Source of the DNA: Octopus vulgaris
Taxonomy: Eukaryota
Length of the DNA: 64,000 nucleotides
Assembly (NCBI GenBank): GCA_951406725.2
Contig: OX597839.1
Span: forward strand, 3,224,001 to 3,288,000
Reading direction: 5' to 3'
Shown here: one piece after another, positions 1,343-59,800 of the stretch
Numbering within the stretch: the stretch's first letter is position 1
Layout of the letters: each line of letters starts with the position of its first letter
Position numbers and translations under genes: made by a program
The notes under the pieces: generated by a model
What the model was told of the DNA's origin: nothing
Seen by the model: the letters and a program-made list of their open reading frames with translations, nothing else
The model's database searches: none

Positions 1343-1543
1343 TAGTTAATCCAAACAAGAAAGCACAAAAAAACACAACAACACGAGGACGTGGAACAAA
1401 TATAGTATTATTGGACGCTCAGGAAAGAAGGAAAGAAGGAGGGTTTAACGTTTCGAGCGGAGCTCTTCGTCGGAAACAGGAGAAGGAAAGATCAAGAGAA
1501 GGGAAGACAGAGGAAAAAAATCGCCAACGGTACACACGAGGAA
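1343..1543 (-). mobile_element. ~200-bp Penelope-pLTR-like element, family P1, in (TA)n
   Basis: Copies at 6492-6693 and 14896-15086; carries a hammerhead-like motif at 1443-1477. Confidence 0.7.
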
Positions 1544-2751
1544 ACATATATATATATATATATGCGTGTGCAGGCATGTGATGCATAGTCACTTACACAC
1601 ACGTATGCGCACACACATGCCCACACATATAAACACACACGCACATACACACACACATACACATATATATGTGTATGTGTGAGCGTGTGTTTGTATTTAT
1701 AAATCTCTATAATCTCTATAAATGTATGTATAGGTCAATTATTTTTAGCGTACGGTTGTAGGTGAACTCCATTGTGTTTATAGAACAATTATGGACTTCA
1801 GAAAGGAATTACACATATATACACACAAATACATACATACTTACATACATGCGTACATACATACATACATACATACATACATACATACATACATACATAC
1901 ATATATATAGATATATATATACACGCATATATATATATATATATATATATATATATATATATATATATATATATATATATATATATATATACAGACGGGC
2001 TGGCAGACTGACAGACAGACAAACTTGCACGATCAATGGACATTGAGAAACAAAGAATATGTAAGAAAACGAAATAAACCGGAAAGAAATAAAGAAACGT
2101 TGGCAGACATTGTTAATTTTGATTTTTGCCATTCATTTTATTATTATTATCATTATTATTATTATCATTATTATTATTATTATTATTATTATTATTTTTA
2201 TTATTATTATTATTATTATTATTATTATTATCATTAATATTATTGTTTCGAGATAATTAAATACTATTGCTGGCTCAAAATACAGCACACCAAATCTTAT
2301 TATATTGATTACAATGTTGATAAACTAACACAATCTGCCGTCGGTCAAGTAAATTGATCGTAACAAACATAACGAATAGATAAACACTGGAATATCGATA
2401 TAAAAGAGGAGGATAAATGAATATAAATGTATGCAAATAACGAGAAGCCGGATCGTATGTTTATACATACACACACACATATTCATATATACATATAAGT
2501 AAATATATTTGTAAATATATATATATACATATGGGTATATATATATAAACACATACACACACACACACATACATACATATGTATATATATATATATATAT
2601 ATATATATATATATATATATATATATATATATATATATATATGTATGTATGTGCGTATGTACGTATATATAATAAGTATGTGTGTGTATATATCAAATAT
2701 ATGTATAAATTGTATATACATACAAACATATATACATAATATATTAATATA

Positions 2752-56800: not shown

Positions 56801-59800
56801 GAGAGAGAGTTAGAGAGTACTAGAGAGAGAGAGAGAAGAGGAGAGAGAGAGAGAGTACTAGAGAGAGAGAGAGAGAGAGAGAGAGAGAGAGTCGAGGAGA
56901 GAGAGTTCTGAAGAAATCAAGTGAAAGAGTACTAGAGAGAGAGAGAGAGAGAGAGAGAGAGAGAGAGAGAGAGAGAGACGGGAGAGAGAGAGAGACGGGG
57001 GGAGAAAGTTCTGAAGAAAACAAGTGAGTGTACAAGAGGGAGAGAGAGTTCTGAAGAAAACAAGTGAGAGAGTACTAGAGAGAGAGAGAGTTCTGAAGAA
57101 AACAAGTGAGAGAGTACTATATATAGAGAGAGAGAGATGAGGAGAGTGCTGGAAAGAGTGCATGAACAAGAGCTGAAAAGAGAGATTGGTCTCCATAGTT
57201 AATTCAGGTCACATAAACTGCTTAATAAAACAACAACACCACCACCATTAAAATGGTGTACCTGTGCACATGTTTTATCTCTTGTTTAAGCAGAACTTTA
57301 GTTGAGATGAAATAATATTAAGATAGTAGTGAACGATGGTGTGGTGATGGTGGTGCTTCAACAATGGTGAAAAGTCAAGTCCTTTTACAAGTTAAAAAAA
57401 AAAGAAAAAAGGTAAAAAAAAAAAATGAAGGTCAACTCATTCACCTCATTTTTGATAGTCCAGTTCTTGAAATCAGCTTTAAAGAATCCGCAGATGATGA
57501 TAAAGCAGAGAACGTATAAATTGATTCCAGTGGCTACGTTGTTCACTATGGCAGATTCCTTCACCCCAAAAAGCAAAATGACTGAAAGACAATATGATTG
57601 TTTGCAACTGTTATTCCTTTGTAATTTAGATTTCAAGCAGGGCCAGATTAAGACCCATAGAGGCCCGAAGCACTTAAAAGAATTTGGGGCCCCCATATAT
57701 ATATATATATACGGGAAGCTTTATGAAAATAGACAAAAGACGAAGGCAGGTGGGAAAGAAACAAACAATTGTATTAGTATGGCGCTCAGGAAATATAAAT
57801 AAAACAAGTCTTTAACGTTTCGAGCCTACGCTCTTCAACAGAAAGATACTCAGAGAAAAAAAAACACAGAAAGAAGGAGAGAAAAAAAATGCGTGCAGTA
57901 ACTAACGAATCAACATATATATATATATATATATATATATATATATATTTAATTCAAAAATATTTACAATAATAAATCACAAAATAAATTTTCATTTTTC
58001 AAAATGAACACCAACATCAAAGTAAAAATCAAATGGAAATTATAGTTATGATACCTGTGCCGGAGGCACATAAAAAGCACCATCTGAACATGGTTGATGC
58101 CAGCGCCGCCTGACTGGCGTCCGTGTCGGTGACACATAAAAGCACCAACCGATCATGAACGTTGCCAGCCTCCCCTGGCATGTAAAAAGCACCCACTACA
58201 CTCATGGAGTGGTTGGCATTAGGAAGGGCATCCAGCTGTAGAAACACTACCAGATTAGACTGGAGCCTGGTGCAGCCTCCTGGCTCCCCAGATCCCGGTC
58301 GAACCGTCCAACCCATGCTAGCATGGAAAACGGACGTTAAACGATGATGATGAAACAACTAACAGTAAGATGGAAAGTATTGTTTATTTTTGTATATTCC
58401 ACTTGATGTATATTTGAAAAGTTGTTTTTTTTAAATTGCAAAACCAATTGACCAAATCCTCAAAATTAATCATCCATAACATGCATTTCTATATACTCTT
58501 TTACTTGTTTCAATCATTTGACTGCGGCCATGCTGGAGCACCGCCTTTAGTCGAGCAAATCGACCCCGCGACTTATTCTTTGTAAGCCCAGTACTTATTC
58601 TATCGGTCTCTTTTGCCGAACTGCTAAGTGACGGGGACATAAAAACACCAGCATCGGTTGTCAAGCAATGCTAGGGGGACAAACACAGACACAAACATAT
58701 ACACACACGCACATATATATATACATATATACGACAGGCTTCTTTCAGTTTCCGTCTACCAAATCCACTCAGGGAATTGGTTGGCCCGGGGCTATAGCAG
58801 AAGACACTTGCCCAAGATGCTACGCAGTGGGACTGTACCCGGAACCATGTGGTTGGTTAGCAAGCTACTTACCACACAGCCACTCCTGCGCACCATTATA
58901 TATGCAATTCAAATATAAACAAACCATAAAATATATTTTTCAAAACGAAACAAAACACTAATCTGGAAAATTTTATTTTTGTATACTTCCACTATTTATA
59001 TTTGAAGTTTTCCCTTTTTTTTTTTTTAATTGCAAAGGTTGATCAGATACTCAATGACACCATGAACACTTCGAAAAAGGGTACCACATGAGATAGAGAA
59101 GGGATTAAAAAAAATATGGATTGATGGAGTGAAGCATAAAAGGTTGGTGGGGGAGGAATAGGCATAAGCACGGCTGTGCAATAAGAAGTTTGCTTTCCAA
59201 CCACATGGTTCTGGGTTCAGTCCGACGGCATGGCTCCTTAGGCAAATTTTTTCTACTATGGCCGAGCCAAGAAAAGCTTCGTGAGTACATTTGGTAGAGA
59301 AACTGAAAGAAGCCTGTTGTATGCATGTATGTTTGTTCCCCACAGTGCATGACAACCAATGCTGGTTTGTTTACATCCATGTAACTTAGGTATTCAGCAA
59401 AAAGAGACAACAATAAAATAAGTACTAGGCTTTAAAAAAAGAAAAATGGGGTCAGATTGTTCAACTAAAACTCTTCAAGGCAGTGCCCCAACATGGCCAC
59501 AGTATAATGGCTAAAACAAGTAAGAGATAATGGCAAAAAAATCTAGAATGAAAATTACCAATGTAACTATACAATGATGTAATGCAATTTATGATACATC
59601 ATCATATGTCCATTGTCCATGCTGGTATGGGTTGGATGGTTTGACCAGAGCTGGTCAGCTGAGGGGCTGCACCAGATTCCAGTCTGATTTAGCAAGGTTT
59701 CTACAGTTGGATGATTTGACCAGAGCTGGTCAGCTGAGGGGCTGCACCAGATTCCAGTCTGATTTAGCAAGGTTTCTACAGTTGGATGATTTGACCAGAG

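What the first reader, a model, noticed from the sequence alone, without database searches (positions are those of the whole stretch)
1343..57915. A collection of Penelope-type hammerhead ribozymes with several different catalytic cores
Seen: about 11 type-I hammerhead-shaped motifs (stem I, core, stem II, GAAAC, minimal stem III, GUH) at 1443-1477(-), 6587-6621(-), 14517-14555, 14952-14986, 21395-21432, 22056-22100, 29840-29881(-), 29938-29979, ~45317-45401(-), 45423-45511 and 57809-57846(-). Cores are CUGAUGA, UUGAUAA, UUGACAA, CCGACGA, CUGUCGA/CUGUUGA and one decayed AUAAUGA. Known: Penelope-like elements carry minimal hammerheads in their pLTRs, and positions 3 and 8 base-pair. Inference: several short non-coding ribozyme retroelement lineages coexist here and insert at (TA)n, probably mobilised in trans by a PLE such as the one whose remnant lies at 36 kb.
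Basis: partly seen in the sequence, partly recalled or inferred. Interest (0 to 1): 0.85.

Follow-up and report, generated by a model that had tools for sequence, protein, structure and literature searches.

The report
Octopus jumping-gene hammerheads with altered cores
The eleven self-cutting-RNA motifs are real and belong to six jumping-gene families of known kinds (four are cut-off tails of protein-coding Penelope elements, two are short non-coding tandem repeats), and one very abundant family keeps the ribozyme's shape while carrying a core letter change predicted to weaken its cutting.

Summary
All 11 motifs are present and exceed chance once a self-complementary stem III is required (6 hits vs 0 in 100 shuffles; a looser descriptor does not beat chance). 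They fall into six genome-wide families. C and D are 357-365-nt head-to-tail units with no adjoining ORF, i.e. non-LTR retrozymes. A, B, E and F are 5'-truncated 3' ends of coding Penelope-like elements, with intact young parents for B and for A's sister A'. U3-A8, U4C and U10.1-U11.1 are in print. Family B's A6U core I did not find in print. It is in 15,730 of 15,910 exact genome matches. Position 7 is the most variable of 208 columns, and core and stems are depleted of changes on shared branches but not on terminal ones. So the fold is under selection with a core predicted to cut poorly. Cleavage is untested. The scan noted similar Penelope variants on other DNA.

The parts
1345..1542 (-). 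Family A stub: 3' end of a Neptune-type PLE; hammerhead 1443-1477, core CCGACGA (U4C), extra A after A9, stem III CG, site GUU
   Evidence: ends approximate
6492..6692 (-). Family A stub with the A'-type stem I (U.U mismatch); hammerhead 6587-6621, core CCGACGA, site GUC
   Evidence: ends approximate
14890..15086 (+). Family A stub; hammerhead 14952-14986, core CCGACGA
14519..14790 (+). Family C non-LTR retrozyme, partial monomer of a 365-nt unit; hammerhead core UUGAUAA (U3-A8), stem III CAUG; this copy has lost part of stem I by 5' truncation
21322..21522 (+). Family B stub: pLTR end of a Neptune-type PLE; hammerhead 21395-21432, core CUGUCGA (A6U), stem III CG, site GUA
57710..57914 (-). 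Family B stub, core CUGUUGA (A6U), hammerhead 57809-57846; groups with the young intact subfamily
22043..22275 (+). Family D non-LTR retrozyme, partial monomer of a ~357-nt unit; canonical core CUGAUGA, C.A at 10.1-11.1, stem III CUCGGG
29797..30023 (.). Family E inverted pair of PLE 3' ends; hammerheads 29840-29881(-) and 29938-29979(+), core UUGACAA (U3-A8), mismatch at 10.1-11.1, stem III CCGG
45225..45545 (.). Family F inverted pair of Hydra-type PLE 3' ends; 45423-45511(+) core CUGAUGA with long stem II and stem III CUAAUAG; 45317-45401(-) core decayed
   Evidence: ends approximate
35968..36729 (.). Old decayed PLE remnant: inverted repeats 35968-36150 and 36538-36729 around an endonuclease C-terminal piece (36368-36526, minus strand, ending in a C-R-H motif)

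Best explanation
The motifs are type-I hammerheads in six repeat families: four (A, B, E, F) are 5'-truncated 3' ends of protein-coding Penelope-like elements, two (C, D) are non-coding tandem units of about 360 nt, and all are predicted to cut as dimers, with B (A6U) and A (U4C) likely cutting slowly and with protein help. Shown: family structure, links to ORFs, TA targets, palindromic stem III, covariation in C and depletion of core and stem changes in B. Inferred from published PLE biology: the element's GIY-YIG nuclease nicks (TA)n, reverse transcription starts near the RNA 3' end and usually stops early, leaving ribozyme-bearing stubs, often with an inverted partner. In full-length tandem elements the two pLTR hammerheads of one transcript would pair through stem III and trim the precursor. 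Inferred for C and D: multimeric transcripts self-cleave to monomers, circularise, and are copied by a PLE reverse transcriptase in trans into circularly permuted 1-3-unit inserts. Most genomic stubs, including several window copies, are likely inert debris.
For: B: 28 of 30 GIY-YIG loci carry B downstream in sense; L217 has 632-bp pLTRs 98.4% alike, each with the hammerhead, around a 1119-codon open frame with RT and GIY-YIG. A': open frames of 1008-1009 codons, direct repeats 98-99.9% alike, a tandem trimer at about 6.17-kb period, the same CCGACGA hammerhead, 60% identity to B's protein; A itself has PLE coding pieces in sense upstream in 3 of 30 walked loci (L297, L302, L308). F: 12 of 30. 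E: 3 of 30. C: period 359-365 in 13 of 30 loci, no PLE protein match upstream in 50 of 50 loci, monomer folds with z = -7.95, compensatory pairs in stems I, II and III (32 cells vs 9.9 in shuffles, 0/500; slid controls 3-10). C stem III is CAUG 58, CUAG 26, CGCG 14, other 2 in the first 100 of 1,036 matches (counted by hand). D: the 3' block lies 111-117 nt upstream of the hammerhead in 10 of 22 copies. B selection: changes on shared branches 2 vs 8.0 expected in the core (P 0.014) and 1 vs 11.1 in stems (P 0.0002), on terminal branches 23 vs 23.6 in the core. Literature: dimer-acting minimal HHRs in pLTRs and solo truncated copies (PMC4209133), protein-assisted PLE hammerhead (PMC11167929), non-LTR retrozymes (PMC7229834).
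Against: No cleavage, RNA end or circle was observed. CUGA-turn mutants other than the 3-8 swap had low activity in a pairwise mutagenesis (PMC9901934), and A6C gave under 0.1 per min (PMC3088659), so A6U and U4C may be effectively dead. In the youngest element A' stem I also has a U.U mismatch. PLE insertion in vitro did not need hammerhead cleavage (PMC11167929). No full-length parent was recovered for E or F, none exactly for A, and two of the three E-linked loci break off before the hammerhead. The branch test uses 96 copies picked by similarity searches, BLAST-mapped columns and a rough tree, and its reference columns include poly-T tracts. D shows no covariation and has a C.A mismatch at 10.1-11.1. 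No helper element is identified for C or D.
Confidence: 0.75

Rival explanations
1. In B and A the hammerhead no longer cuts. The fold is kept for another job, such as pairing two pLTRs through the stem III palindrome or binding the reverse transcriptase, which frees positions 4 and 6.
For: A6U and U4C are fixed or dominant in young, amplifying elements; such changes lower activity in published mutagenesis (PMC9901934, PMC3088659); cleavage was dispensable for insertion in vitro (PMC11167929); A' has a mismatched stem I.
Against: The catalytic bases G8 and G12, the 3-8 pair, A9, A13-A15.1 and U16.1 stay conserved on shared branches, and the positions that vary are the two that are free in active hammerheads, N7 and H17. 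H17 is A 74, U 19, G 2 of 95.
Confidence: 0.3
2. One reading: all six are short non-coding ribozyme retroelements moved in trans by a PLE like the 36-kb remnant.
For: The window copies are all short and ORF-less; C and D are non-coding tandem units; most A and E copies found lack coding sequence, so non-autonomous sub-lineages may exist.
Against: Copies form nested 5'-truncation series that lead into GIY-YIG and RT coding sequence; the 36-kb family is old and rare.
Confidence: 0.1
3. The variant cores are neutral hitch-hiking mutations: a master copy lost its ribozyme and amplified anyway, and the apparent conservation is shared ancestry.
For: Repeat copies share any master mutation; position 6 alone showing no change is not significant (0.62 changes expected per column).
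Against: N7 takes all four bases in distinct subfamilies (9 changes on the tree vs 49 shuffled) while core and stems do not change; A and A' pLTRs are about 74% alike yet share the 27-nt core and stems II-III exactly.
Confidence: 0.12
4. The motifs are chance matches of a relaxed descriptor in AT-rich DNA.
For: A loose descriptor gives as many hits in shuffles as in the window.
Against: Each motif belongs to a genome-wide family, sits in sense at a PLE 3' end or in a tandem unit, and C covaries; reversed-pattern controls give 0.
Confidence: 0.02

Closest known systems
Minimal type-I hammerheads (min-HHR) in pLTRs of metazoan Penelope-like elements (Cervera & de la Pena 2014, PMC4209133)
   Same: A and B match the published layout: short stem I, extra nucleotide after A9, G10.1-C11.1, palindromic 15.2-16.2, mostly solo truncated copies, some in opposite strands; U3-A8 is reported there.
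   Different: Their consensus core is CUGANGA; A has C4 and B has U6. E and F have a mismatch at 10.1-11.1 and longer palindromes. No octopus in the main text parts read or in the one supplement searched.
Neptune and Hydra clades of EN+ PLEs (Craig et al. 2021, PMC8557442)
   Same: B, A' and E parents have RT, a CX2-5CxxC linker and C-terminal GIY-YIG (Neptune/Nematis type); F's parent and the 36-kb remnant have CxxC and CxH around the conserved E and N (Hydra type; the remnant retains only the CxH end intact); (TA)n targets and inverted truncated copies are described there.
   Different: Clade calls here rest on motifs, not on a tree. The paper reports canonical hammerheads for these clades; the A and B stem II strings are absent from its supplement.
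Non-LTR retrozymes of animals (Cervera & de la Pena 2020, PMC7229834; Li et al. 2026, bioRxiv 10.64898/2026.07.22.740005)
   Same: C and D: non-coding head-to-tail units of about 360 nt (mussel units are 350-390 bp), type-I hammerhead with weak palindromic stem III, highly self-paired monomer.
   Different: C has a family-wide U3-A8 core and dispersed 1-3-unit copies, often with inverted partners and TA flanks; circular RNA not shown here; 'octopus' does not occur in the main text of PMC7229834.
Natural hammerhead core variants (Perreault et al. 2011, PMC3088659)
   Same: U3-A8, U4C (viroid), A6C and U10.1-U11.1 are described as natural variants.
   Different: A6U is not named in the section and passages read, and the variants there are rare; here one is fixed in more than 15,000 copies.
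Poseidon element PAc of the green anole (Frangieh et al. 2024, PMC11167929)
   Same: PLE hammerhead that cuts only with the element's protein; AT-rich targets.
   Different: Canonical core; tested in vitro, whereas nothing is tested here.

Membership tests
Type-I hammerhead ribozyme | Three-way junction with stems I and II and core in type-I order | tested here: met
   All six families at family level; covariation for C; several window copies are damaged
Type-I hammerhead ribozyme | Canonical core C3 U4 G5 A6 N7 G8 A9 ... G12 A13 A14 A15.1, U16.1 H17 | tested here: not met
   Met by D and F; C and E have the known U3-A8 swap; A has C4 in 71 of the first 100 matches (hand count); B has U6 in 15,730 of 15,910
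Type-I hammerhead ribozyme | Site-specific self-cleavage after H17 | not testable with these tools
   Only assembled contigs were available
PLE min-HHR | Palindromic minimal stem III allowing a dimer | tested here: met
   CG (A, B), CAUG/CUAG/CGCG (C), CUCGGG (D), CCGG (E), CUANUAG (F)
EN+ Penelope-like element (families A, B, E, F) | Single ORF with RT and C-terminal GIY-YIG upstream of the hammerhead, same strand | tested here: met
   Intact for B and A'; endonuclease fragments only for A, E, F
EN+ Penelope-like element (families A, B, E, F) | pLTR direct repeats or tandem arrangement | tested here: met
   B: L217; A': L326, L330, L333, L328-329; not seen for E or F
EN+ Penelope-like element (families A, B, E, F) | 5' truncation with fixed 3' end, inverted partners, (TA)n target | tested here: met
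Neptune or Hydra clade | Phylogenetic placement of the RT | not tested
   Only linker and endonuclease motifs were compared with PMC8557442
Non-LTR retrozyme (families C, D) | Non-coding head-to-tail unit of 150-400 nt with one type-I hammerhead | tested here: met
   C period 359-365; D about 357; no contiguous PLE ORF (of three D hits, L425 was checked and is a separate insertion)
Non-LTR retrozyme (families C, D) | Tandem copies with two or more complete hammerheads | tested here: inconclusive
   Seen for C (L100, L102, L384); not seen for D in 20 loci
Non-LTR retrozyme (families C, D) | Accumulation as circular RNA | not testable with these tools
   No run on record as RNA; contigs only

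The most novel reading that the evidence does not exclude
The A6U hammerhead of family B, and the U4C one of A', are protein-switched ribozymes: the core change silences self-cleavage until the element's own reverse transcriptase binds, or the fold now works as a non-cutting RNA scaffold for transposition. Either way a highly active animal retrotransposon keeps a hammerhead under selection with a core outside the accepted consensus, and descriptor searches that demand CUGANGA miss tens of thousands of such motifs in one genome.
Probability: 0.3. Interest if true: 0.7.

Novelty: new variant of a known kind. Interest (0 to 1): 0.45.

Why it matters
What PLE hammerheads do is an open question (stated so in PMC8557442 and PMC7761336). 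This genome offers a natural experiment: young intact elements with U4C and A6U cores, sister copies with the canonical core, and a retrozyme clan with U3-A8 and three interchangeable dimer palindromes. Cleavage assays on these, with and without the element's protein, would show whether PLEs need fast cutting, slow cutting or only the fold. The overall arrangement (PLE stubs and retrozymes in TA repeats) is known and not surprising.

Tried and rejected
Rfam scan: only simple-repeat miRNA matches among the 150 rows shown. The repeat finder was swamped by microsatellites. The loose descriptor was not above chance. Pfam found nothing for the two short endonuclease pieces. Expression: no RNA holder listed for family C; the runs laid are contigs of guessed type, so they show no strand, end or level; no verdict. 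My first structure for C's distal stem I was out of register (27.6% paired) and was corrected. Single-strand and cofold predictions of the short motifs did not give the hammerhead dimer fold and were not used. A canonical-core subfamily of B was sought: 180 matches with all four N7 states, in line with scattered back-mutation, though a small subfamily is not excluded. For A, U4 in 27 of 100 exceeds the decay at the neighbouring CpG (about 4 and 3 of 100), so a canonical subfamily likely exists (hand count). A link of D to a PLE ORF at L425 was rejected: a TA run and unrelated DNA separate them; L120 and L428 were not inspected further. Three papers were not held: Lunse et al. 2017 (PMC5785218), Arkhipova et al. 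2017 (PMC5850863), Nelson & Uhlenbeck 2008 (PMC2271363).
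Full report
Setting. The window is G000:C26:3224001-3288000 of a 2.8-Gb assembly in 227 contigs. I infer an octopus from genome size, chromosome number and earlier scan notes; I did not test this.

Observation. All 11 motifs are present as described. A loose descriptor does not separate them from chance (8 vs 3-12 in shuffles). Requiring a self-complementary stem III does: 6 hits vs 0 in each of 100 shuffles in the window, and 16 vs 0-1 in 600 kb of evenly spaced genome samples. 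This descriptor was tuned after the fact and misses five damaged or mismatched window copies. The stronger evidence is that each motif belongs to a genome-wide family. Exact-pattern counts are 15,910 for B, 12,050 for A, 1,036 for the C clan and 63 for D, with 0 for each reversed control. E and F were not counted by pattern. The 600-kb sample held 7 B, 6 A, 5 E, 3 C and no D or F copies.

Family B is the end of a coding Penelope element. Walking upstream from B gave a nested series of 5'-truncated copies through a low-complexity 3' UTR into GIY-YIG and RT coding sequence. Of 30 loci found with the endonuclease piece, 28 carry B downstream in sense. L217 is complete: 632-bp pLTRs 98.4% alike, each with the hammerhead, around an open frame of 1119 codons with RT (Pfam RVT_1, E 1.4e-7), a CX4CxxC linker and GIY-YIG (E 0.0065, below cut-off).

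Family A. Of 30 walked loci, three have PLE coding pieces in sense upstream. One led to a very young sister element A' with open frames of 1008-1009 codons, direct repeats up to 99.9% alike and a tandem trimer. Its protein is 60% identical to B's. Its pLTR end is about 74% like A's, yet core and stems II-III are identical; its stem I has a U.U mismatch, as in window copy 6587. An intact parent with the exact 3' end of copies 1443 and 14952 was not recovered.

Families E and F. Upstream of E's 3' UTR an endonuclease C-terminus lies in sense in 3 of 30 loci; one of these also reaches a partial hammerhead and two break off earlier. For F it lies about 250 nt upstream of the hammerhead region in 12 of 30 loci, with CxxC and CxH motifs like those given for the Hydra clade (PMC8557442, section 11). 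The 36-kb remnant is of the same type but old and rare. In the window both E and F are inverted pairs, a known PLE arrangement.

Families C and D. Their 3' end runs into their own 5' end: period 359-365 nt for C (13 of 30 loci) and about 357 nt for D. No PLE protein match lies upstream of C in 50 loci; D had three matches in 32, one inspected and found to be a separate insertion. The C monomer folds far better than shuffles (z -7.95). Across 29 distinct C-clan hammerheads, stems I, II and III show compensatory changes (32 cells vs 9.9 shuffled, 0/500; number of covarying pairs 7 vs 6.2, not significant; slid controls much lower). The search pattern fixed part of these stems and relatedness inflates cell counts. 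The stem III centre, left free in the pattern, was palindromic in 98 of the first 100 matches, in three forms (hand count). These are non-LTR retrozymes by structure; circles were not shown.

Variant cores. U3-A8 (C, E), U4C (A) and U10.1-U11.1 (E, F) are described as natural variants (PMC3088659; U3-A8 in PLEs in PMC4209133). A6U (B) stands in 15,730 of 15,910 matches. In 95 distinct B copies position 7 is the most variable of 208 columns (1.89 bits, all four bases) while U6 is 94 of 95. N7 states follow subfamilies (9 changes vs 49 shuffled). On a tree of 96 copies (13 copies from loci picked for A6 were left out) the core has 2 changes on shared branches against 8.0 expected and the stems 1 against 11.1, while terminal branches are neutral (23 vs 23.6). 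Contigs from four runs labelled as four organisms all show the N7 variation and no listed change at position 6 above 5%. In 80 related elements from marine metagenomes, 24 sense-strand hammerheads in 21 loci all had U4 and A6 (21 C3-G8, 3 U3-A8); one antisense hit had C4. So A6U looks derived in this lineage and is kept along with a selected fold.

Is A6U in print? A whole-word search for hammerhead and A6U returned one work, on twister ribozymes (listing only). Searches for octopus with hammerhead ribozyme and for retrozyme with cephalopod terms (none of the 10 listed holds 'retrozyme') found no description. An octopus repeat annotation has no occurrence of ribozyme, hammerhead or retrozyme in its main text (PMC13282606). 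But Lunse et al. 2017, which treats PLE hammerhead variants directly, and Arkhipova et al. 2017 were not held, one supplement of PMC4209133 and that of PMC7229834 could not be read, and figures are not held. The claim of novelty is therefore provisional.

Mechanism. Shown: element structure, TA targets, palindromic stem III, selection signals. Inferred from published work: nicking of AT-rich DNA and reverse transcription from near the RNA 3' end give truncated and inverted stubs; pLTR hammerheads act as dimers with low activity (PMC4209133) and, in the one element tested, only with its protein and without being needed for insertion in vitro (PMC11167929). Mutagenesis predicts low activity for U4C and A6U (PMC9901934). 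I favour slow, protein-assisted trimming of tandem precursors for A and B (about 0.55 for residual cutting, 0.3 for a non-cutting role, the rest drift), and the self-cleave, circularise, trans-copy cycle for C and D.

What I saw of each paper: PMC4209133 parts 1-2 of 4 and a search of one supplement; PMC8557442 passages, section 11 and a supplement search; PMC3088659 passages and section 8; bioRxiv 10.64898/2026.07.22.740005 part 1 of 5; passages only of PMC6765202, PMC7229834, PMC13282606, PMC6155905, PMC11167929, PMC7761336, PMC9901934. Hammerhead numbering and the general TPRT model are partly from my own knowledge. Family letters A-F and A' are my labels.

Verdict. The reading needs correcting: four coding-element tails and two retrozymes, both known kinds. 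The part worth a specialist's time is a high-copy, recently active PLE whose hammerhead is under selection with an A6U core, beside a U4C sister. The scan has noted similar variant-core Penelope stubs on other DNA of this and other genomes; those notes are not independent support. Interest 0.45; new variant of a known kind.

Noticed in passing
window 32060-33163 (+): Intact single-exon 7TM receptor ORF of 367 codons (Pfam 7TM_GPCR_Srw E 1.5e-35, 7tm_1).
   Followed up: partly
window about 46000-62400 (-): Exon pieces of an amino-acid permease gene (55206-55598 matches AA_permease; other pieces read only). The family B hammerhead at 57809-57846 appears to lie in one of its introns on the sense strand, a place where an active ribozyme would be harmful; exon structure not mapped.
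   Followed up: partly
window 3335-3859 (-): Decayed mariner (Mos1-type) transposase piece (HTH_48).
   Followed up: no
L327:1-2250 and L425: A third young PLE family (two copies 100% identical over 117 residues) with its own hammerhead: core CCGAAGA in L327 (CUGAAGA in other copies), U.U at 10.1-11.1, stem III GUAC. U4C thus occurs in more than one family.
   Followed up: partly
L226, L270, L084: Another family with core CCGAUGA and stem III CAGCUG; parent not sought.
   Followed up: no
all loci held (1.97 Mb, mostly picked for these families): Many further hammerhead types with canonical cores and 6-8-nt palindromes (CAAUUG, CGAUCG, CAUAUG, CUAAUUAG) and long stem II loops; the genome holds many more families than the window shows.
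   Followed up: no
L087, about 580 nt upstream of the E hammerhead: A hammerhead-like motif with UUGUCGA core (U6) and different stems; possibly another A6U family or a decayed copy.
   Followed up: no
window 4846-5401, 18224-18594, 31127-31495: Head-to-tail 184-186-nt units of an abundant SINE-like repeat; no hammerhead by my descriptors.
   Followed up: no
window 19340-19807: Near-perfect 468-nt palindrome built of simple repeats, perhaps another inverted insertion scar.
   Followed up: no
L013, L016, L020: Family A copies inserted in the TA run directly after a family B 3' end: shared targeting makes these elements cluster, which may explain why the window has 11 motifs in 64 kb against 21 in 600 kb elsewhere.
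   Followed up: partly
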